Assembly (NCBI GenBank): GCA_964650875.1
Contig: CAZYYF010000001.1
Location: 2,037-32,430 of the forward strand
DNA: 30,394 bases
From: an uncultured bacterium
GTDB taxonomy: Bacteria; Ratteibacteria; UBA8468; B48-G9; JAFGKM01
Direction: 5' to 3'
Positions 13,742 to 22,906 of this stretch are shown here, piece after piece. The position numbers were made by a program, and so were the translations under genes. Positions within the stretch are counted from its first letter, which is position 1; each line of letters starts with the position of its first letter. The notes beneath the pieces were generated by a model. It was not told where the DNA came from, did not search any database, and saw only the letters and a program-made list of their open reading frames with translations.

Positions 13742-14774
13742 TTTTTTTTACGAGAGGTTTATCTACCGTAAAAAATCCCTTGTTTTCAAAACTCTTTCAT
13801 TTTTGTTGATACCCTTTTCTTTGTTTTATCTACTAACTATAAGCCTTATGAAATTGTTCATACGTCCTAAAAAGTATTCTTTTCCTATTATCAGTGTGGG
13901 AAATATAGTAACAGGAGGAACAGGAAAAACCCCTTTGGTAACCTATCTTTCCGAAAGATTCATAAGAGATAATTTTAAGGTTATAGTATTATCTTCTGCC
14001 GCAGAAAAAAGTATAAAAAAATATTCTTCAACTGAAAGGGATGATGAACTCCGTATGCTTAAAGAGCAACTGCCAGGTATAATAGTAGAATCTAAACGTA
14101 GAGATAAACTTATAAGCGTAGAAAAAATCGCGTACAGCAACAAAGTTATAGCTATTATTGACGATGGTTTCCATTCACATGCTATTAAAAAAGATGTTGA
14201 TATTCTCATAATTGACGCCTCCAATCCATTTGACAATCACCTCATTATACCATCAGGACTTTTGAGAGAACCTGTATATTTTGCGAAAAGGGCAGATGTT
14301 TTTGTGCTTTCTCACCCTTATATGGTTCCAAGAGAACAGTTAGATAAGATTGCTACAAAATTGAAAGGGTTCGGTAGACCTGTTTTTGTTATGGACTATG
14401 AGATAAAAGGATTGAAAAGTGATAAAGGCTCTCTGCCTTGTCTTGAGATAGACGGTAAAGAAATTATAGGGCTGGCAGGATTGGGTAACCCAAGAAACTT
14501 TTTTTACTTGCTGACTAAACTTAACCCAGTGAAAATTCACCCTATAGTCTATCCTGACCATTTTTCTTACAGAACCGAGGATATTGAGCGGATTGCTCTC
14601 GCACGTTCAAAAAATAATGCTTCCTATATCATTACTACTGCAAAGGATTATGTGAAGTTGAAAAAAATTGTCGGAGAGTTACCTGTTTTTTATCTGGATA
14701 TTAGAAGCAAAATGGAAAATTTCTACGAAAAAAAAGATTTTGACAGATTTATACGTTCTATGTTAAAATTATAA
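13716..14774 (+). CDS. lpxK: Tetraacyldisaccharide (lipid A) 4'-kinase
   Basis: ISVGNIVTGGTGKTP, IIDDGF, PSGLLREP, YPDHF and TTAKD. Likely start is the ATG at 13716. Confidence 0.9.
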   Translation: MRIYNPFFDFFYERFIYRKKSLVFKTLSFLLIPFSLFYLLTISLMKLFIRPKKYSFPIISVGNIVTGGTGKTPLVTYLSERFIRDNFKVIVLSSAAEKSIKKYSSTERDDELRMLKEQLPGIIVESKRRDKLISVEKIAYSNKVIAIIDDGFHSHAIKKDVDILIIDASNPFDNHLIIPSGLLREPVYFAKRADVFVLSHPYMVPREQLDKIATKLKGFGRPVFVMDYEIKGLKSDKGSLPCLEIDGKEIIGLAGLGNPRNFFYLLTKLNPVKIHPIVYPDHFSYRTEDIERIALARSKNNASYIITTAKDYVKLKKIVGELPVFYLDIRSKMENFYEKKDFDRFIRSMLKL

Positions 14775-14847: not shown

Positions 14848-15783
14848 ATGGGATTTGGACCTGCCAAATTTATAAGGGAAAAAATAAAAGAGCTGGATAA
14901 AAAGACTGAAGGGCAAAAAGTAATTGTCGCGACATCAGGTGGAGTTGACAGTATGACCTGTGCTATGCTTACATTCAAAGCCATAGGCAACAGACTCATA
15001 GTGCTATATCTGGATAATGGATTGATGAGACAGGGAGAAACCGAAGAAGTAAACAATTTTTTTGCTAAAATGGGTATAGAATTGCAGATATGGGATGTTA
15101 AAGAGAAATTTTTTGATGCCCTTAAAGGTAAGAAAGACCCTGAAGAAAAAAGAATAGCGTTCAGGGATATTTTTTATAAAACCCTCAGACAGGCAATAAA
15201 AAGTTATTCTGCTGAATTTCTTGTGCAGGGAACAATCGCAGCAGATATAGTAGAGACACAAAAGGGCATTAAAACCCAGCATAATGTGCTTTCTCAGATA
15301 GGAATAAATCCTGCCACTTATGGACTGAAAATTATTGAACCTCTGAAGGAACTATATAAACCACAAGTAAGAATGGTGGCAAAACAGCTTGGGTTGCCGA
15401 AAAAAATTTATGAAAGGAAACCTTTTCCTGGTCCAGCGTTAGCTACAAGAATTATCGGAGAAGTTGTCCCTGACAGAGTAGAAAAGGTGAGAATTGCGAC
15501 TATGATTGTAGAAGATTTAATCAAAGAAAGAAATGTGTTTCAGGTTTTGGCTGTCCTTTTGTCTGATAAAGCCACAGGTAACATAGACGGCAAAAGAATT
15601 TATGGGGATATTATTGCAATAAGGGCAGTTGAATCAAAAGATGCTATGACTGCTACACCGTGTAAACTTCCGTGGACAAAGCTTGAAAAAGTTAGAAATA
15701 AAATCCTTGCAGAGGTTCCAGGAGTGGTGAAGGTTGTCTATGATATTACTCCAAAACCACCAAGCACTATTGAATATATCTGA
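14848..15783 (+). CDS. guaA: GMP synthase, ATP-pyrophosphatase subunit only (subunit B type, no glutaminase domain)
   Basis: The PP-loop ATSGGVDS lies about 30 aa from the start. Also LVQGTIAAD, KTQHNV, EPLKELYK, PFPGPALA and YDITPKPPSTIEY. Length 311 aa, versus about 510-525 for fused GuaA. Confidence 0.93.
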   Translation: MGFGPAKFIREKIKELDKKTEGQKVIVATSGGVDSMTCAMLTFKAIGNRLIVLYLDNGLMRQGETEEVNNFFAKMGIELQIWDVKEKFFDALKGKKDPEEKRIAFRDIFYKTLRQAIKSYSAEFLVQGTIAADIVETQKGIKTQHNVLSQIGINPATYGLKIIEPLKELYKPQVRMVAKQLGLPKKIYERKPFPGPALATRIIGEVVPDRVEKVRIATMIVEDLIKERNVFQVLAVLLSDKATGNIDGKRIYGDIIAIRAVESKDAMTATPCKLPWTKLEKVRNKILAEVPGVVKVVYDITPKPPSTIEYI

Positions 15784-15829
15784 TAAAACATTAAAAATAC
15801 CTATATTATTTTTCAAAGGAGCAGGTTCA

Positions 15830-17170
15830 TTGGAAAATCCGCGAATATTGAATGAAAACTGTGGGATATTTGGTTTATATGCCGTAGATACATCAAGCAC
15901 AGTGGCAAAAAACATATATTACGGTATTTTTAAACTTCAGCATCGAGGACAAAAATACTGTGGCATAGCTTCTTATGGTAATGATATAAATCTAATAACC
16001 CATAAGGGTTTTGTAAGGCATACATTTTCTTCAGATGACCTTGATTCCATGGACGGTAATTTTGGTATAGGACATACAAGTTTGAAAGAAAGGCAGCCAA
16101 TAATCCTTATATCAAAAATAGGGAAGTTTGCAATAGCTTTTAGTGGCAATATCATTAATGGAATGCAACTACGTAAAGAATTAGAGCAAAAAGGACATTC
16201 TTTCAGTACGGAATCTGATATTGAGCTTTTAGGTAAACTTATTGCCTGCTATGATAATTTCGGTGAAGGTATATTCCAGTTGAGCAATAAGATAAAGGGT
16301 TCATACAGTCTGGTAATACTTTCAAAAGATGGTATATATGCTGCAAGAGACAAGAACGGTTTTAAACCGCTTATCCTCGGTATGAATAAAAACCATTTTG
16401 CTGTTTCTTCCGAATCAAGGTCATTTGACTTGCTGAAGATTGATATCTTAAGAGATGTTAAACCTGGAGAAATAGTCTTTATAGATAAAAAAGGTATCCA
16501 GACAATAGCAAATGTTGAGTGTCATAAACCGGCTTTTTGTGCTTTTGAATGGGCATATATCGCATCAATAGATTCAGTGATAGAAGGCATACCTGTAATA
16601 GAAGCGCGAGAAAATTTCGGAAGTAAACTTGCTTCTTATGATAAAAACATTGAAGCAGACATTGTTGCCCCAGTGCCTTTTTCTGGAATAGGATGCGCTC
16701 TTGGATATCACAAAACATCAGGTATCCGATATGAAGAGGTTTTTCTTATAGACAGGTTTGCCAGCAGGAGCTACACCCCTTTGACACAAGAAAGTAGAGA
16801 CGAAGAAGCTAAAATTAAACTTTCTGTAATAAAATATAACGTCAAGGGGAAAAAAATCATTTTGTGTGACGATTCTATTGTAAGAGGAACACAAATAAGG
16901 TTTAAGGTTAAAGAATTGAAAGAAGCAGGTGCAAAAGAGGTTCATGTAAGGATTGCCTGTCCTCCACTTATAGCACCATGTTTTTACGGTATTTCAACCC
17001 GTTCGTATAATGAACTTGCCGCCAGGAAATTTTCTGTAGAAGAGATAAGAAAAAAAATTGGGGCGGATACCTTGAAGTATAATTCCCTTGAAGATTTTAT
17101 TTCATCTATAGGATTACCTGCAGATAAACTCTGTTTATCCTGCTTTACAGGACAAATGGTAGAGGAATGA
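15830..17170 (+). CDS. purF: Amidophosphoribosyltransferase (Fe-S type with propeptide); divergent glutaminase domain
   Basis: TTG start after AAGGAG gives MENPRILNEN-CGIFG. Also LQHRGQ, ARDKNGFKPL, DDSIVRGT, and Fe-S cysteines (CAFE, PCFYG, CLSC). Confidence 0.9.
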   Translation: MENPRILNENCGIFGLYAVDTSSTVAKNIYYGIFKLQHRGQKYCGIASYGNDINLITHKGFVRHTFSSDDLDSMDGNFGIGHTSLKERQPIILISKIGKFAIAFSGNIINGMQLRKELEQKGHSFSTESDIELLGKLIACYDNFGEGIFQLSNKIKGSYSLVILSKDGIYAARDKNGFKPLILGMNKNHFAVSSESRSFDLLKIDILRDVKPGEIVFIDKKGIQTIANVECHKPAFCAFEWAYIASIDSVIEGIPVIEARENFGSKLASYDKNIEADIVAPVPFSGIGCALGYHKTSGIRYEEVFLIDRFASRSYTPLTQESRDEEAKIKLSVIKYNVKGKKIILCDDSIVRGTQIRFKVKELKEAGAKEVHVRIACPPLIAPCFYGISTRSYNELAARKFSVEEIRKKIGADTLKYNSLEDFISSIGLPADKLCLSCFTGQMVEE

Positions 17171-18216
17171 GAAAAAGTAAAATAGTTTTTGAAACTGGAG
17201 AGTGTGTAGAAGGATATCAGATTCTTAATCCTCTTAAAGAAAAGATAGAAAGGGTTATTTTTGATACAAGAATAGTAGGATATGAGAAGACATTGAGCTG
17301 TCCAGAATATAAAGATAAAATTGTCTGTTTATCATATCCCCTAATTGGCAACTATGGTATTAGTTATCAGGATATTGAAACAAAGGATGTTTTCCCATCA
17401 GTACTCATCATATCAGAGTTAAGTAGTATTGCAAGTAATTATAGGAGTAATATTCCATTTGCAGATTTTATCTTAAAAACAAAAATCTCGGTTATTTCCA
17501 AAATAGATACTCAATATATTACTAAAATAGTTAGAGACAATTGTAACCTGTGGGCATCTATTGTGTCTTTTGACGCAGATGTGAAAAAAGTCCTTTGTGA
17601 AATTAAAGAAAAAAAACAATCTTTCTCAGAGGAAAAGGTTCCCTTTTATGTACCAGAAAAAAGAGCCTCTGTTATGGGTTTAAGGAAACATAATATAGCC
17701 GTTTTGAACCTCGGTTTGAAAAATACCGAGATGTTTCATCTTGCATCTTCAGGTTACGGGATAAAAATAATAAATCCAGCAGACGGGGATGCAAAACAAC
17801 AGATTCTTTCTTCAAATGCCCTCTATATCACATCAGGACCATCTCATAAGATTCTTATCTCTCAGATGGCGGCTTTTCTAACAAACATCCTTGGAAAACT
17901 GCCTGTTTTCGGTGTGGGTATAGGCCATTTAATTCTCGGAAAAGCACTTGGAGGAAAAATTGCCAACAGTACTGTGAATCATTATGGTGTGAACCATCCT
18001 GTTGTGAATCTCAAGAAAAAGAATTGTATTATTACCGAACAGATGCACAGCCTGATATTACAGAGAGAAGACCTGCCTGAAGATATAATAGAAACCATCC
18101 ACATGCATGATGGAACAGTTGAGGGGTTATTCCACGAAGAGATGAAAGCTTTTTCTGTCAGTTTCATCCCACAGGAAGAACATTTCCAGAGGTTTTTTTC
18201 ACTGATAGAGGAATAA
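17167..18216 (+). CDS. carA: Carbamoyl-phosphate synthase small subunit homolog lacking the catalytic Cys/His/Glu
   Basis: N-domain [11 protein letters not shown]...YPLIGNYG, plus NHPV and DGTVEGL. Coupled to purF (ATGA) and directly upstream of carB. Active-site motifs read GVGIGHL and SVSFIPQ. Confidence 0.88.
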
Positions 18217-18217
18217 A

Positions 18218-21200
18218 ATGCCAGGAACAAAAGATATTCACAAAATAATGATAATAGGTTCAGGCCCAATAATTATAGGACAGGCTTGCGAGTTTGACTA
18301 TTCAGGTTCGCAGGCATGCAAGGCTTTGGAAGAAGAAGGATATCAGGTGGTACTTGTCAATAGTAATCCTGCGACTATTATGACAGACCCTGATATGGCT
18401 GAACGTACATACCTTGAACCTCTTACTGTAGATATGCTTAAAAAGATAATAGAAAAAGAAAAACCTGATGCCATACTTCCTACTCTCGGAGGACAAACAG
18501 GATTGAATCTGGCAACATTTCTTTATAGAGACGGAATTCTTGAAAAGTACAATCTAAAGGTTATAGGAGCTGACATTAAGAGTATTGCTATTGCCGAGGA
18601 CCGTGAGATTTTCAAAAATACTATGTTAGAGATTGGTATAAAGGTTCCAGAAAGTGTACTTGCTTATGATTTGCAAGAAGGAATAAATGCAGCGAAGAAG
18701 ATTGGTTTTCCCTTGATCTTGAGACCTGCCTACACACTTGGAGGTACAGGAGGTTCTGTTGCTTATAATCTGGAAGAACTTGAAAAAAAACTTGAGTATG
18801 GCCTGGAAACAAGCCCTATCCATGAGGTCCTTGTAGAACAGTCTGTTTTAGGATGGAAGGAGATAGAATTTGAAGTTATGAGAGATTGCCGTGATAACGT
18901 CATCATAATAACATCTATGGAAAACGTTGACCCAATGGGTGTTCATACCGGAGATAGTATAGTTGTTGCCCCTGCACAAACACTTAGCAGAAAAGAATAC
19001 GAAAAACTAGTTGATTATTCCAAAAAAATTATAAGAACAATAGGGGTAGTTGGAGGTTCTAACATACAGTATGCTGTAAATCCTGAAAATGGTGAAGTTG
19101 TTATCATAGAAGTCAACCCGAGAGTCTCAAGAAGTTCGGCTCTTGCTTCGAAAGCTACAGGGTTCCCTATAGCCCGTATTGCTTCCAAACTTGCAGTTGG
19201 ATTCACCCTTGATGAGGTTACGAATCATCTGGTGGGAAATACAACCTGTTTTTATGAACCTACTGTTGATTACTGTGTTTTTAAAATACCAAGGTTTACT
19301 TTTGAAAAATTTCCGACGGCAGAAAAAACTATAGGCACTTCAATGAAAGCCGTAGGAGAATCTATGGCCATTGGTAGAAATTTCCGCGAAGCCTTGCAGA
19401 AAGGAATAAGGTCACTTGAAATAGGCAGGTATGGTCTTGGCTGTGATGGAAAAGATAGATGGAATACATCACACAAGTTTACTGAAGATGAAAAAGAACT
19501 GATAAAAAAGAGGATATCCATTCCAGATGATGAAAGACTTTTTTATGTCAGATACGGCCTTCTTGCTAATCTACCGATTGAAGAAATTCATAGTCTTTCG
19601 AACATAGATATGTGGTTTCTGCATAATATAAAGAAAATTGTAGATATGGAACAAAAACTTTATAAATATGGAGATATCAATAAATTGCCTGATACATTGC
19701 TCTATGAGGCAAAAAAAACAGGTTTTTCAGACCATCAGCTGGCGATACTTTTCAAAACAACAGAGAAAGCAGTTAGAGAAAAAAGAAAAGAAAAGAATAT
19801 TTTAAACGTTTTCAAGCTTGTAGATAGCACAGCAGGTGAATACAAAGCTGAAAAGCCATACTATTACTCTACATATGAAAAGTATGATGAAGGTAGATAT
19901 TCCCAAAAGAAGAAGGTTATCATATTAGGAGGAGGACCTAACAGGATAGGCCAGGGTATTGAGTTTGACTATTGTTGTGTCCATGCTTCTTTTGCTCTAC
20001 GTGAAGAAGGATATGAAAGCATTATGGTTAACTGTAATCCTGAAACTGTCAGTACCGATTATGACACCTCTGACAGATTGTATTTCGAACCTGTAACCGT
20101 TGAAGACGTGATGAATATCATAGACAAAGAAAAACCTGAAGGGGTAATACTACAGTTTGGAGGCCAGACACCTCTAAATCTTGCCATTTCCTTACAGAAC
20201 GAAGGTGTCAATATTCTTGGAACTAGCCCTCAAGCCATTGACATTGCAGAAGACAGAGAAAAATTCAGACAACTTCTTGAGAATCTCTCTATCAAACAGA
20301 CACAAAATGCGACAGCCATTTCGTTCAAACAGGCAGAGGCTATCGCTGCCCGTATAGGTTATCCAGTTCTTGTAAGACCTTCATACGTTCTTGGAGGCAG
20401 GGCAATGGAGATTGTCTATGACAGTAATTCTCTTAAATCTTTTATGCAGAAAGCAGTAGATATTTCTCCCGAACATCCTGTGCTGATAGATAAATTTCTT
20501 ACGGATGCAATAGAAGTGGATGTTGATGCTATCTGTGATGGAAAGATATGTGTTATAGGCGGAATTATGGAACATATAGAAGAAGCAGGGGTTCATTCCG
20601 GAGATAGCGCAATGGTACTGCCCCCTTATAGCCTGAGCAAAAGTGTTATATCCGAAATCGAAGAATCAACTAAAAAGATTGCCCTTGAACTCAACATAAG
20701 AGGGCTTCTGAATATACAGTACGCTGTAAAAAACAGTGATGTTTATATACTGGAAGTCAATCCCCGCGCCTCAAGAACAGTACCTTTTGTAAGCAAGGTT
20801 ATAAACGTTCCCCTCGCCAAACTTGCAACAAAGATAATGACCGGTAAGACACTTATACAGATCGGATTTACGCAAACAGTTAGTCCCAACTTCTTTGCAG
20901 TTAAAGAATCTGTTTTCCCCTTTACAAGATTTCAAGGCATAGATGCTACTTTGGGTCCTGAAATGAGATCTACAGGAGAAGTTATAGGTATTGACCGAAA
21001 TTTTGAGATGGCCTATGCGAAAAGTCAGATTGCAGCAGGGCAGAAACTGCCTATTGCAGGAACTGTTTTTATCAGCGTAAAAGATAAAGATAAGCCTGCT
21101 GTTGTTCCTATTGCAAAAGGCTTTCGTGAAATAGGATTTGAGATTTTTGCCAGTTCAGGCACAGGAAAATTTTTGTTTGAAAAGGGATTAGATGTCAAAA

Positions 21201-21478
21201 TAATACCTAAGGTTTATGAAGGAACAAGACCAAATATTGTTGATTATATGAAAAATAACAAAATTTCTCTCATAATCAACACTCCTTCTGGTAAAAAAAC
21301 ACAAAAGGATATCGTATCAATGAGGAGTATTGCAGTCAACAGAAATATTCCACTTATAACTACGATACCTGGTGCTAAATCTACGCTGGTTGCTATAAAA
21401 AAAATAAAGGAAGATGATATTAACGTTAAAAGTATCCAGGAGTACCATGCAGAATTAAAAATAAATAGGTGCGGATAA
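18218..21478 (+). CDS. carB: Carbamoyl-phosphate synthase large subunit
   Basis: [17 protein letters not shown], two ATP-grasp domains (GVHTGDS, GVHSGDS; [18 protein letters not shown]) and an MGS-like C-terminal domain. Confidence 0.98.
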
Positions 21479-21530
21479 TGTTCTCATTTCGTTTATCTCT
21501 ACCTGAATTATTAATCTTCCTGGGTGGGGA

Positions 21531-22160
21531 GTGAAATTGACAGGAATCGTTAATTATGGAGTAGGCAATATATACAGTGTGGTTTCCGCAGTGAAAAAAT
21601 GCGGAGAAGAATCTTTTATCATTGAAAAACCATCTGATTTTTTAAAAGCGGATAAGATTATACTGCCAGGAGTTGGAGCCTTCGGTAAAGGTATACAACA
21701 CCTACAAGAATCTGGTATTAAGACCGCGCTTTTTGATATAATAAAAACAGGAAAGCCTTTCCTTGGAATATGTCTTGGGATGCAGATTCTGTTTTCTTAT
21801 AGTGAAGAAGGAGACTGCGAAGGATTAAATCTTATCAAAGGAAATGTTAGAAAGTTTGTTTTTCAACCGTTTCATAAGATGAAAGTCCCTCATATGGGTT
21901 GGAGTATTGTAAAAATAATAGAGCCAGGTAAAAAACTTTTTAATAATATACCAGATAATATGTGGTTCTACTTCGCCCATTCCTATTATGTGATACCTGA
22001 AGAATCAACAGTAATTGCCGCTACAACTAACTATGGTTATAGATTTGTTTCCGCAGTCAAGATGAACAATATAGTGGGGGTGCAGTTTCACCCTGAAAAA
22101 AGCGGGGATTGTGGATTAATATTTCTGAAGAACTTTCTGGAGGGAAGATGGCTACTGTAA
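21531..22160 (+). CDS. hisH: Imidazole glycerol phosphate synthase glutaminase subunit
   Basis: GTG start. [19 protein letters not shown] (Cys intact), VPHMGW, YFAHSY and QFHPEKS (His/Glu intact). Confidence 0.95.
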
Positions 22161-22906
22161 GGATTATACCATGTCTTGATGTAAAAGAAGGTAGTGTAGT
22201 AAAGGGTATCCATTTTGAAAATCTCATACAGGCAGGAGACCCTGTCGAACAGGCGGCATTTTACAGTAAAGAAAAAGCGGATGAGATTGTCTTTCTTGAT
22301 ATAAGTGCAACCATAGAAGGCAGAAAAACAATGGTGGATGTTGTGAAAAAAGTTGCAAGCGCAGTTTTTATACCTCTTACTGTTGGTGGAGGTATTAACA
22401 GCATAGGTGATATAGAAGATCTTTTAAAAGCAGGTGCAGACAAAATTTCGATAAATACCGCCGCGGTCAAAAATCCTTCATTGATAAAAGAAAGTACAGA
22501 TAAATTTGGGAGCCAGTGTATTGTTATAGCAATAGATGGCAAAAAAGTCGGCCCCGAAAAATGGGAAGTGTATATTGAAAGTGGGAAGACTCCGACGGGA
22601 AAAGATGTTGTTGAATGGGCAAAAAAGGTTGAAAAACTTGGAGCAGGAGAAATTTTACTTACCAGTATAGATATGGATGGTACCCAGAAAGGATACGACA
22701 TTGAAATGACCAGATCTGTTTCTAAAAACATCAGCATACCTGTAATTGCTTCGGGAGGAGCAGGTACTCTTGACCATCTTTATAAAGTCATAAAAGAAGG
22801 TGGAGCTGACGCTATTCTTCTTGCTTCTCTTTTACATTTCAGGAAGTATACCATATCAGAAATAAAACAGTATTTGAAAGACAAAGGACTGGATGTCCGC
22901 CTATAA
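22148..22906 (+). CDS. hisF: Imidazole glycerol phosphate synthase cyclase subunit
   Basis: [38 protein letters not shown] and PVIASGGAG. Likely start is the ATG at 22148. Confidence 0.96.

What the first reader, a model, noticed from the sequence alone, without database searches (positions are those of the whole stretch)
14848..22906. Amidotransferase gene block in which three of four enzymes lack a working glutaminase
Seen: six tightly packed co-directional genes, guaA-purF-carA-carB-hisH-hisF (gaps of 47 bp or less, several overlaps). They serve four different pathways (GMP, IMP, pyrimidine/arginine, histidine) and share only the need for an NH3 donor. GuaA has no GATase domain, CarA has lost Cys/His/Glu, and PurF has lost its Q-loop and oxyanion Asn, whereas HisH is intact. 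Established: the synthase halves of these enzymes can use free NH3 in vitro; HisH is normally activated only by HisF; from memory, purF-carA-carB clustering also occurs in Bacteroides. Inference: three parallel losses in one locus suggest either (A) a dedicated free-ammonia-dependent nucleotide biosynthesis module for ammonium-rich anoxic habitats, saving the ATP spent by glutamine synthetase, or (B) one shared glutaminase (HisH or an unlinked one) feeding several synthases. I do not know of either being described as an operon-level system.
Basis: partly seen in the sequence, partly recalled or inferred. Interest (0 to 1): 0.82.

Follow-up and report, generated by a model that had tools for sequence, protein, structure and literature searches.

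The report
Amidotransferase operon with dead CarA glutaminase
A bacterial operon for the first nitrogen-adding steps of purine, pyrimidine/arginine, GMP and histidine synthesis encodes a carbamoyl-phosphate synthetase whose glutamine-splitting subunit is catalytically dead; the pattern recurs in many uncultivated anaerobes, which suggests, but does not prove, that they feed these steps with free ammonia.

Summary
The six-gene block is real: guaA (ATP-pyrophosphatase part only), purF, carA, carB, hisH and hisF lie on one strand behind one promoter-like site. Every sequence claim checks out. CarA has Cys269->Gly, His353->Ile and Glu355->Gln. PurF has an 8-residue Q-loop deletion and Asn101->Ser. 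HisH is intact.

The three "losses" are not equivalent, and they are not local events.
- CarA is a true pseudo-glutaminase. It keeps the CarA fold, its GATase domain evolves about twice as fast as normal, and it has lost the tunnel-lining PGP loop. Triad-less CarAs turn out to be common in metagenomes and are not described in the literature I could search.
- PurF belongs to a large, old subfamily found in bacteria and archaea. Its N-terminal Cys1 is invariant and its N-domain is as constrained as in canonical PurF, so it may still be catalytic.
- GuaA is the known archaeal-type subunit B, whose glutaminase partner is normally encoded elsewhere.

In relatives the same gene set is reshuffled together with gdhA, glnA, purL and nagB, usually without hisH. 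Every carA found beside a variant purF is dead (17 of 17 metagenome loci). Free-ammonia dependence is well supported for CPS and plausible for the other enzymes. A HisH shared between synthases is not supported. The test for paralogs elsewhere in the genome could not be run.

The parts
14740..14769 (+). Best sigma-70-like promoter match in the region (TTGACA, 18 nt spacer, TAAAAT, with an extended TG). It lies in the last codons of lpxK, about 80 nt upstream of guaA.
   Evidence: 11 of 12 hexamer positions match, the top hit of the scan. This is a consensus match only.
14848..15783 (+). guaA subunit B: the ATP-pyrophosphatase plus dimerisation part of GMP synthase, 311 aa, with no GATase domain.
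   Evidence: PF00958 and the PP-loop; TIGR00884 scores 321.7 against a cutoff of 338.75; the best solved relatives are the archaeal two-subunit GMPS subunit B (6jp9, 2dpl; E about 6e-80), ahead of fused bacterial GuaA (1e-61). The SGGVDS PP-loop is present.
15830..17170 (+). purF of the variant subfamily. It has a 10-residue propeptide (MENPRILNEN) followed by Cys1 (codon 15860-15862). The Q-loop is shortened by 8 residues to SLKERQP, and Asn101 is replaced by Ser. The HRGQ motif, the Asp127 equivalent, the PRPP motif and the 4Fe-4S cysteines are kept.
   Evidence: TIGR01134 scores 345.3 against a cutoff of 350. The AlphaFold model has mean pLDDT 89, and the N-domain is above 90.
17167..18216 (+). 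carA*: a carbamoyl-phosphate synthetase small subunit with a dead glutaminase site (Cys269->Gly, Gln273->Leu, His353->Ile, Glu355->Gln; the PGP tunnel loop is deleted). Its start overlaps the purF stop by 4 nt.
   Evidence: TIGR01368 scores 200.6 against a cutoff of 307.35. The model has pLDDT 87, with TM 0.86 to E. coli CarA 1jdb and 0.82 to the human CPS1 N-terminal moiety.
18218..21478 (+). carB: the large, synthetase subunit, full length and highly conserved.
   Evidence: NF003671 scores 1620 bits against a cutoff of 599. It is 78-83% identical in relatives whose CarA* is only 39-48% identical.
21531..22160 (+). hisH: the glutaminase subunit of imidazole glycerol phosphate synthase, with an intact Cys-His-Glu triad.
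   Evidence: TIGR01855 scores 220 against a cutoff of 105; GICLGMQ and FHPE are present.
22148..22906 (+). hisF: the cyclase subunit of imidazole glycerol phosphate synthase. The start at [12 protein letters not shown] overlaps hisH by 13 nt.
   Evidence: TIGR00735 scores 356 against a cutoff of 294. The WbuZ model falls below its cutoff (290 against 299.7).

Best explanation
WHAT IT IS
The block is one transcription unit. It gathers the enzymes that insert the first amide or ammonia nitrogen into four products:
- purines (PurF);
- pyrimidines and arginine (CarA*/CarB);
- GMP (GuaA subunit B);
- histidine (HisH/HisF).
It is a lineage-specific version of an amidotransferase supercluster that is widespread in anaerobic bacteria.

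HOW IT LIKELY WORKS
- CPS. The small subunit has become a pseudo-glutaminase. It is kept as a structural partner of CarB but cannot hydrolyse glutamine. The enzyme must therefore take up free NH3, as vertebrate CPS I does (inferred).
- GMP synthase. Only the archaeal-type ATP-pyrophosphatase subunit is present. It can aminate XMP with NH4+ on its own. It may or may not have an unlinked glutaminase subunit (not testable here).
- PurF. This is a distinct, ancient subfamily with a remodelled glutamine pocket. I consider NH3-dependent PRA synthesis the most likely activity in vivo. The invariant Cys1 means that a retained, altered amidohydrolase activity is nearly as likely.
- IGP synthase. It remains an ordinary glutamine-dependent HisH/HisF pair in this clade.

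SHOWN VERSUS INFERRED
- Shown: gene content, residue changes, conservation patterns, co-occurrence across lineages.
- Inferred: use of free ammonia, and the physiological rationale (an ammonium-replete anoxic niche).
For: 1. All three CarA triad residues and Gln273 are lost. The same holds in all 16 members of its clade, where the Cys position is G, T, A, S or F.

2. At matched CarB identity (0.75-0.90), triad-less CarAs are 0.59 (N-domain) and 0.45 (GATase domain) identical. Canonical CarAs are 0.75 and 0.77. Constraint is therefore relaxed mainly on the glutaminase half, yet the ORF and fold are kept (pLDDT 87; TM 0.86 to 1jdb).

3. The PGPxD loop that includes E. coli Gly359 is deleted. Gly359 is the residue mutated in structure 1m6v (G359F). 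The loop is kept in 65 of 70 triad-intact CarAs and lost in 62 of 80 triad-less ones.

4. Precedents:
- Human CPS1 has an inactive glutaminase-like domain and takes ammonia from the environment.
- E. coli tunnel-blocked mutants use ammonia but not glutamine (PMC4655335, read; titles of Huang & Raushel 2000).

5. Co-occurrence in 80 metagenome loci carrying the variant purF:
- all 17 carA genes present are triad-less and none is canonical;
- 18 further loci have carB next to the variant purF and no carA-like ORF within 10 kb;
- all 16 guaA genes present are subunit-B-only.

6. The same set is reshuffled in distant lineages, together with ammonia-assimilating enzymes:
- L087: gdhA-glnA-purFv-carA*-hisF-guaAB-carB;
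- L093: hisF-guaAB-gdhA-purFv-carA*-carB-purL-nagB-trpE-trpG;
- L107, L110, L129 and L153.

7. One strong promoter-like site lies upstream of guaA. Gene spacing is tight or overlapping, and no terminator-like site follows hisF.
Against: 1. No whole genome of this lineage could be searched. A canonical carA, a guaA subunit A, or a purQ elsewhere in the genome cannot be excluded.

2. The PurF N-domain shows no relaxed constraint: N-domain identity is 0.524 against 0.547 for canonical PurF, and 0.597 against 0.620, at matched C-domain identity.

3. PurF Cys1, HRGQ and the new SLK[ED]RQP loop are invariant or nearly so. This is what a still-catalytic domain would show. It is the opposite of the pattern seen in CarA*.

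4. glnA lies inside several related clusters, and trpG and hisH glutaminases are intact there. These cells therefore make and use glutamine.

5. Canonical versions of the same cluster exist, so the clustering is not itself evidence for ammonia use.

6. Habitat ammonium was not examined.
Confidence: 0.55

Rival explanations
1. Glutamine dependence is preserved through unlinked partners. Under this reading:
- a canonical carA, a guaA subunit A and other glutaminases lie elsewhere in the genome;
- the variant PurF still hydrolyses glutamine with a re-engineered pocket;
- CarA* is an accessory or regulatory paralog.
The operon would then be an ordinary co-regulated amidotransferase cluster.
For: - Two-subunit GMP synthases normally have an unlinked subunit A. 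This is established for archaea, and the best matches here are the archaeal subunit B structures 6jp9 and 2dpl.
- PurF Cys1 is invariant and its N-domain is fully constrained.
- Canonical clusters of the same genes exist in related phyla.
- glnA is part of some variant clusters.
Against: - carA* is the copy that is translationally coupled, between purF and carB, in four divergent lineages (window, L087, L093, L095).
- No canonical carA was seen beside any variant purF (0 of 17), and 18 loci have carB with no carA within 10 kb.
- PurF has lost the Arg73, Tyr74 and Asn101 equivalents. In much of the subfamily the Asp127 equivalent is also replaced by Gln.
Confidence: 0.22
2. One glutaminase serves several synthases. 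The candidates are:
- HisH in this clade;
- a TrpG/PabA-type subunit in others;
- the Cys1-containing N-domain of the variant PurF, which would deliver NH3 to CarB through the CarA* scaffold.
For: - Related superclusters collect many synthase halves (pabB, hisF, guaAB, purL, trpE, carB) with a single intact class-I glutaminase at the end (L093).
- purFv and carA* are translationally coupled. Where carA is absent, purFv directly abuts carB.
- Sharing of TrpG/PabA between two synthases is established in B. subtilis (from my own knowledge).
Against: - hisH is absent from most related clusters.
- The L093 glutaminase is a plain TrpG/PabA next to trpE.
- CarA* occupies the glutaminase docking site of CarB.
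- carB-purF adjacency also occurs with canonical enzymes.
Confidence: 0.1
3. The degenerate features come from decay or are artefacts: pseudogenes in a reduced genome, or assembly or frameshift errors.
For: CarA* evolves fast, and its NCBIfam score is below the cutoff.
Against: - The ORFs are intact in every relative.
- The same substitutions appear in independent assemblies from NCBI, JGI, ENA and Logan.
- 44 columns are invariant across the CarA* clade, and the fold predictions are confident.
- The PurF variant is highly conserved.
Confidence: 0.02

Closest known systems
Vertebrate mitochondrial carbamoyl-phosphate synthetase I (CPS1)
   Same: - It keeps a glutaminase-like domain that cannot hydrolyse glutamine.
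- It must take free ammonia (PMC4655335).
- The CarA* model superposes on the CPS1 N-terminal moiety (TM 0.82).
   Different: - CPS1 is a single fused polypeptide. It depends on N-acetylglutamate, is eukaryotic, and has lost only the Cys (replaced by Ser).
- Here the subunit is separate and bacterial. All three triad residues, Gln273 and the PGP loop are gone.
- Ammonia use is inferred here, not measured.
E. coli CarAB tunnel or active-site mutants (C269S in 1c30; G359F in 1m6v)
   Same: - The positions affected are the same: Cys269, and the loop containing Gly359.
- The engineered mutants lose glutamine use but keep ammonia use (titles cited in PMC6245113 and PMC4655335).
   Different: Those are laboratory mutants. 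Here the changes are natural, conserved across a clade, and accompanied by relaxed evolution of the whole GATase domain.
Crenarchaeal PurF' (Brown et al. 2011, PMC3261824)
   Same: - It is a PurF-family protein with a disabled glutamine site.
- It is clustered with nucleotide genes.
- It was proposed to be an ammonia-dependent PRPP aminotransferase.
- In archaeal loci the variant here also sits next to a canonical-site PurF paralog (L094, L137, L142, L154).
   Different: - PurF' lacks the N-terminal Cys.
- The subfamily here has an invariant Cys1 and a conserved replacement loop, SLK[ED]RQP.
- In the bacterial loci it is the only purF seen.
Archaeal two-subunit GMP synthase (GuaAA/GuaAB; M. 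jannaschii 6jp9, P. horikoshii 2dpl)
   Same: The GuaA here is a stand-alone ATP-pyrophosphatase subunit. Subunit B of these enzymes is its best match (272 bits).
   Different: The host is bacterial. No subunit A gene was seen in any of about 25 related loci, and its presence elsewhere is untested.
Canonical amidotransferase superclusters (carA-carB-purF-guaA, hisH-hisF-carA-carB-purF, with glnA)
   Same: The gene themes and often the order are the same in Omnitrophota, Planctomycetes, Desulfobacteraceae and Ruminococcaceae loci (L025, L033, L051, L062, L013, L075, L054).
   Different: Those loci carry triad-intact CarA (except L062), Q-loop-intact PurF and fused GuaA.

Membership tests
Glutamine-hydrolysing CPS small subunit CarA (TIGR01368 / PRK12838) | N-terminal CPSase small-chain domain plus a class-I GATase fold, encoded next to carB | tested here: met
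   PF00988 scores 90 bits and PF00117 scores 61 bits. TM is 0.86 to 1jdb_F. carB starts 1 nt after the stop.
Glutamine-hydrolysing CPS small subunit CarA (TIGR01368 / PRK12838) | Cys269-His353-Glu355 catalytic triad, and Gln273 | tested here: not met
   The four positions are Gly, Ile, Gln and Leu respectively. The triad is absent in all 16 clade members.
Glutamine-hydrolysing CPS small subunit CarA (TIGR01368 / PRK12838) | Score at or above the curated family cutoff | tested here: not met
   200.6 against 307.35, and 200.5 against 221.
Ammonia-specific CPS (CPS I-like) | A retained but catalytically dead glutaminase module attached to a complete synthetase | tested here: met
Ammonia-specific CPS (CPS I-like) | Carbamoyl-phosphate synthesis from free NH3 and not from glutamine | not testable with these tools
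   This needs an enzyme assay.
Glutamine PRPP amidotransferase PurF (TIGR01134), B. subtilis type | Propeptide plus N-terminal Cys1, the PRPP-binding DDSIVRGT motif, and four [4Fe-4S] cysteines | tested here: met
Glutamine PRPP amidotransferase PurF (TIGR01134), B. subtilis type | Glutamine-site residues Arg73 and Tyr74 (Q-loop), and the oxyanion residue Asn101 | tested here: not met
   The 8-residue deletion removes the Arg and Tyr, and Asn101 is Ser. The deletion is present in all 120 nearest clusters.
Glutamine PRPP amidotransferase PurF (TIGR01134), B. subtilis type | Score at or above the curated cutoff | tested here: not met
   345.3 against 350, a marginal miss.
Crenarchaeal PurF' | Absence of the N-terminal catalytic cysteine | tested here: not met
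   Cys1 is present and invariant.
Two-subunit GMP synthase, subunit B | PP-loop ATP-pyrophosphatase plus C-terminal dimerisation domain, with no GATase domain | tested here: met
Two-subunit GMP synthase, subunit B | A separately encoded GATase subunit A in the same genome | not testable with these tools
   None was found in the window or in about 25 related loci. No whole genome was available.
Imidazole glycerol phosphate synthase HisH/HisF | HisH Cys-His-Glu triad; HisH and HisF above the curated cutoffs; genes adjacent | tested here: met
   The genes overlap by 13 nt.

The most novel reading that the evidence does not exclude
The variant PurF is a new class of Ntn amidotransferase. Its features are an invariant Cys1, a conserved SLK[ED]RQP loop replacing the Q-loop, a gene translationally coupled to carA*, and direct adjacency to carB where carA is missing.

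Either it uses an amide donor other than glutamine, or it supplies NH3 to CarB as well as to its own PRPP site, functionally replacing the lost CarA glutaminase.

Together with GuaAB, HisF, PurL, NagB, GDH and the recurrent DUF1846 protein, it would form a previously unrecognised nitrogen-incorporation system in Omnitrophota-like bacteria, Desulfobacterota and some archaea.
Probability: 0.12. Interest if true: 0.85.

Novelty: new variant of a known kind. Interest (0 to 1): 0.6.

Why it matters
A review of CPS structure states that glutamine is used by all types of CPS except CPS1 (PMC4655335).

The data here point to natural bacterial CPSs with a dead glutaminase subunit:
- 80 of the 150 best-matching 50%-identity clusters lack at least one triad residue.
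- One belongs to a cultured species, Desulfonispora thiosulfatigenes.
- Databases label them 'glutamine-hydrolysing'.

If these enzymes are ammonia-dependent, three things follow:
- A whole set of nucleotide and amino-acid entry steps in abundant uncultivated anaerobes would draw on free ammonia rather than the glutamine pool. That changes metabolic reconstructions and nitrogen-budget models.
- The enzymes would be natural experiments on ammonia tunnels and on the evolution of pseudoenzymes.
- A systematic annotation error would be flagged.

The PurF subfamily poses a clean, testable question: what does an invariant Cys1 do once the glutamine-binding residues are gone?

Tried and rejected
1. 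Species-genome scan for the dead-CarA clade.

2. Rfam scan of the window for riboswitches or leaders: no hits.

3. Literature searches for bacterial triad-less CarA, pseudo-glutaminase, and Omnitrophota or Ratteibacteria nitrogen metabolism. They returned only the CPS1, E. coli mutant and archaeal PurF' precedents.

4. HisH as a shared glutaminase: rejected, because hisH is missing from most related clusters.

5. HisH/HisF as the glycosyl-amidation pair WbuY/WbuZ, considered because LPS genes flank the block: rejected. HisF passes its own cutoff and WbuZ does not.

6. Gene decay or assembly artefact: rejected.

7. 'PurF N-domain is a decaying remnant': rejected by the matched-divergence comparison.

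It was rerun with alignment A4.

9. Taxonomy. Only source labels of the nearest PurF relatives were obtained: Candidatus Omnitrophica/Omnitrophota, Candidatus Ratteibacteria, or 'bacterium'. The window contig itself (GCA_046128215.1) carries no name.

Full report
**1. What is in the window**

Positions 14848-22906 hold six co-directional ORFs. Pfam and NCBIfam identify them as follows:
- the C-terminal (ATP-pyrophosphatase plus dimerisation) part of GMP synthase, 311 aa, with no GATase domain;
- PurF;
- CarA;
- CarB (1620 bits against a cutoff of 599);
- HisH (220 against 105);
- HisF (356 against 294).

Flanking genes:
- Upstream on the same strand: cca, a HIT protein, a PHP-like protein and lpxK.
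- Downstream: an ELM1-like gene, GT9 and GT4 LPS glycosyltransferases, then leuA and leuC.

The DNA places the likely purF start at TTG 15830, 8 nt after AAGGAG. This gives a 10-residue propeptide before Cys1. Intergenic spacings are +46, -4, +1, +52 and -13 nt.

The best promoter-like site of the region lies at 14740-14769, just upstream of guaA: TTGACA, 18 nt, TAAAAT, with an extended TG. No terminator-like site follows hisF. No Rfam family matches the window.

**2. The residue claims**

*CarA, aligned to E. coli CarA structures*
- Gly replaces Cys269. The numbering is fixed by the C269S chain 1c30_B.
- Leu replaces Gln273.
- Ile replaces His353 and Gln replaces Glu355. The numbering is fixed by the G359F chain 1m6v_B.

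*PurF, aligned to B. subtilis PurF 1AO0*
- It lacks eight residues of the Q-loop: GHVRYATAGGGGYENVQP becomes GHT--------SLKERQP.
- FSGN replaces HNGN, so Asn101 becomes Ser.
- It keeps Cys1, the HRGQ motif, the Asp127 equivalent, the PRPP motif and the four Fe-S cysteines.

*HisH* keeps its triad.

**3. CarA is a conserved pseudo-glutaminase**

- A protein search found a distinct clade of 16 clusters at 34-99% identity. The next hits are canonical CarAs at 33% identity or less.
- All 16 lack the Cys (G, T, A, S or F instead) and the His/Glu. All have an 8-residue deletion of the xSPGPxD segment after the former HPE motif.
- 44 columns are nevertheless invariant, mostly in the CarB-binding N-domain and around NHYGxNxPV.
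- The AlphaFold model is confident (pLDDT 87). It superposes on E. coli CarA (TM 0.86) and on the N-terminal moiety of human CPS1 (TM 0.82).
- At matched CarB identity (0.75-0.90), triad-less CarAs are 0.59 (N-domain) and 0.45 (GATase domain) identical. Canonical CarAs are 0.75 and 0.77. The protein is retained, but constraint on the glutaminase half is relaxed.

A profile search of 1.84 billion representatives gave two results:
- This particular clade is small: three 50%-identity clusters score above 500 bits, and the next scores 317.
- 80 of the best 150 representatives lack at least one triad residue, with Cys->Gly the commonest change.

Examples of triad-less CarAs elsewhere:
- a CarA of cultured Desulfonispora thiosulfatigenes DSM 11270 (WP_084053652.1);
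- a Planctomycetota MAG protein labelled 'glutamine-hydrolyzing';
- a rumen Clostridia group.

The PGP loop is kept in 65 of 70 triad-intact representatives and lost in 62 of 80 triad-less ones.

**4. PurF is not a local loss**

- All 120 nearest clusters (55-100% identity) carry the same deletion. Source labels are Omnitrophica/Omnitrophota, Ratteibacteria or 'bacterium'.
- The family extends to Deltaproteobacteria/Thermodesulfobacteriota MAGs and to contigs with an archaeal gene context (L094).
- Within it, Cys1 is present in every complete sequence.
- HRGQ is invariant. The replacement loop SLK[ED]RQP is nearly invariant.
- The Asn101 position varies (S, N, T, A, G, E). The Asp127 position is D or Q.
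- At matched C-domain divergence the N-domain is as conserved as in canonical PurFs: 0.524 against 0.547, and 0.597 against 0.620.
- The model is confident throughout the N-domain.

This is the opposite of the CarA pattern. The N-domain still does something that requires Cys1, or it is constrained for another reason such as processing, the channel or allostery.

**5. GuaA**

The best solved relatives are subunit B of the archaeal two-subunit GMP synthases (6jp9, 2dpl; E about 6e-80). Fused bacterial enzymes score 1e-61. This architecture is known, and its glutaminase subunit A is a separate gene. Lack of the domain is therefore not evidence that a glutaminase is absent.

**6. Comparative context**

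*Close relatives.* Relatives with 39-48% CarA identity keep the whole neighbourhood, cca through to the LPS genes.

*L087, the most distant clade member (two cold-seep-series MAG assemblies).* It has different flanks and a different order: gdhA-glnA-purFv-carA*-hisF-guaAB-carB, without hisH.

*L093, an Omnitrophota MAG locus.* The gene order is:
- a GAF-ANTAR regulator, mnmG, pabBC and DUF1846;
- hisF, guaAB, gdhA and purFv;
- carA* (Gly, Tyr and Ala at the triad positions) and carB;
- purL, nagB and trpE;
- trpG with an intact triad.

*L095.* It has purFv-carA*-carB.

*Metagenome scan with a variant-PurF alignment: 80 loci.*
- All 17 carA genes present are triad-less. Eight have the ATGA stop/start overlap with purF.
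- 18 loci have carB next to purFv and no CarA-like ORF within 10 kb (phmmer E < 1e-3). One of these, L155, is clearly bacterial (RuvAB).
- All 16 guaA genes are subunit-B-only.
- hisH occurs in only six loci (L097, L101, L103, L104, L111, L120), always directly upstream of hisF and with an intact triad.
- gdhA, glnA, small purL and DUF1846 recur.

*Canonical versions of the cluster.* With triad-intact CarA, full Q-loop PurF and fused GuaA, the same cluster occurs in other Omnitrophota, Planctomycetes, Desulfobacteraceae, Deltaproteobacteria and Ruminococcaceae loci.

The supercluster is therefore a general theme. The degenerate or variant forms co-occur as a package.

**7. Interpretation**

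*CPS.* The most economical reading is that CPS in this lineage is ammonia-dependent. CarA* would be a scaffold, a prokaryotic analogue of CPS I. CPS1 cannot use glutamine because of an incomplete triad and takes ammonia from the environment. E. coli variants with a blocked tunnel still use ammonia (PMC4655335; reference titles).

*GuaAB.* It can in principle aminate XMP with NH4+. This is established for GMP synthetase ATP-pyrophosphatase units, and I state it from my own knowledge.

*Association with ammonia enzymes.* The association with GDH, GS and NagB in relatives fits a regulon for direct ammonia incorporation.

*PurF.* I lean to ammonia use, but a retained, altered amidohydrolase function is nearly as likely.

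- glnA inside the clusters, and intact TrpG and HisH, show that the cells still make and use glutamine. 'Saving GS ATP' is therefore not a sufficient rationale.
- HisH is not a constant partner, so the shared-HisH idea fails.

**8. Limits**

- No genome of the lineage could be scanned for paralogs, because the genome-collection scan was consumed.
- Habitat ammonium was not assessed.
- No activity can be measured here.

**9. Novelty and score**

Each element has a precedent:
- CPS I;
- crenarchaeal PurF', proposed to be NH3-dependent (PMC3261824);
- two-subunit GMPS.

No paper in the searchable library describes triad-less bacterial CarAs or their packaged co-occurrence with this PurF subfamily. 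I rate it a new variant of a known kind, with interest 0.6.

Noticed in passing
L093:593-21228 (Omnitrophota MAG GCA_034717435.1, JAYELI010000043.1): A one-strand supercluster: GAF-ANTAR regulator, mnmG, pabB/pabC fusion, DUF1846, hisF (no hisH), guaA subunit B, gdhA, variant purF, triad-less carA, carB, small purL (no purQ or purS adjacent), nagB, trpE and an intact TrpG/PabA glutaminase. Nearly all the synthase halves of the glutamine amidotransferases sit together with a single glutaminase.
   Followed up: partly
L093:5318-6847; also L107, L108, L110, L138, L149, L153, L166: A DUF1846/UPF0371 protein recurs inside or beside the variant purF/guaAB/hisF clusters, in L093 and in 7 of the 80 scanned loci. 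Structures 7f00 and 3bh1 exist without an agreed function. The S. pneumoniae homolog was reported as hemin-binding (PMC9238395). It may be a missing component of these pathways.
   Followed up: partly
L094:10001-12984; also L137, L142, L154: On contigs with archaeal neighbours (Pelota, ABCE1, ELP3, Hjc), the variant PurF (Cys1 present, Q-loop deleted) is directly followed by a second, 527-aa PurF paralog with a canonical glutamine site (GHLRYATSG, FNGN, VDTE). This recalls the PurF/PurF' pairs of Crenarchaeota.
   Followed up: partly
L141, L145-L147, L149, L152, L155, L159, L161, L165-L168, L170, L171, L173, L175: carB is immediately followed by the variant purF, and no CarA-like ORF is detectable within 10 kb (phmmer E < 1e-3). 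L155 is bacterial (RuvA/RuvB). These may be CPSs with no small subunit at all.
   Followed up: partly
L060:16368-17807 and L007/L060 carB copies: Omnitrophota UBA10183 has a PurF-like gene with Ser in place of Cys1 (FMSGIFG) plus a Q-loop deletion. It lies after a canonical carA and two tandem carB genes. L007 (Planctomycetia) also has two tandem carB genes.
   Followed up: no
P0321 (WP_084053652.1), P0416 (MCX5656451.1), P0032/L091:10001-15079, L062:928-2145: Triad-less CarAs occur in cultured Desulfonispora thiosulfatigenes, in Planctomycetota and rumen Clostridia MAGs, and in an Omnitrophota MAG that has a canonical PurF. In the Clostridia locus the gene sits next to an OTCase gene and a 1344-aa CarB. 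Several are annotated 'glutamine-hydrolyzing'. The L093 copy even scores above the TIGR01368 cutoff (309.6 against 307.35).
   Followed up: partly
L084:15690-16562 and 18695-19309 (also L085, L086): In a relative, an IS200-type Y1 transposase gene is inserted between hisF and the ELM1-like gene. A MazE/PIN toxin-antitoxin pair is inserted among the LPS glycosyltransferase genes. The six-gene block itself is untouched.
   Followed up: no
window:9900-10200: GC skew and AT skew both change sign at about 10 kb. Gene orientation switches at the same point: nusA/infB and the kds/lpt genes are on the minus strand, and cca onward is on the plus strand. This could be a replication-related strand switch or simply the divergent gene orientation.
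   Followed up: no
window:12476-13741: A 421-aa ORF between the HIT gene and lpxK has PHP-like N-terminal motifs but no Pfam hit at E <= 1e-4. Only a weak MJ0043_C hit is recorded for its orthologs. It is conserved in all relatives of the clade.
   Followed up: no
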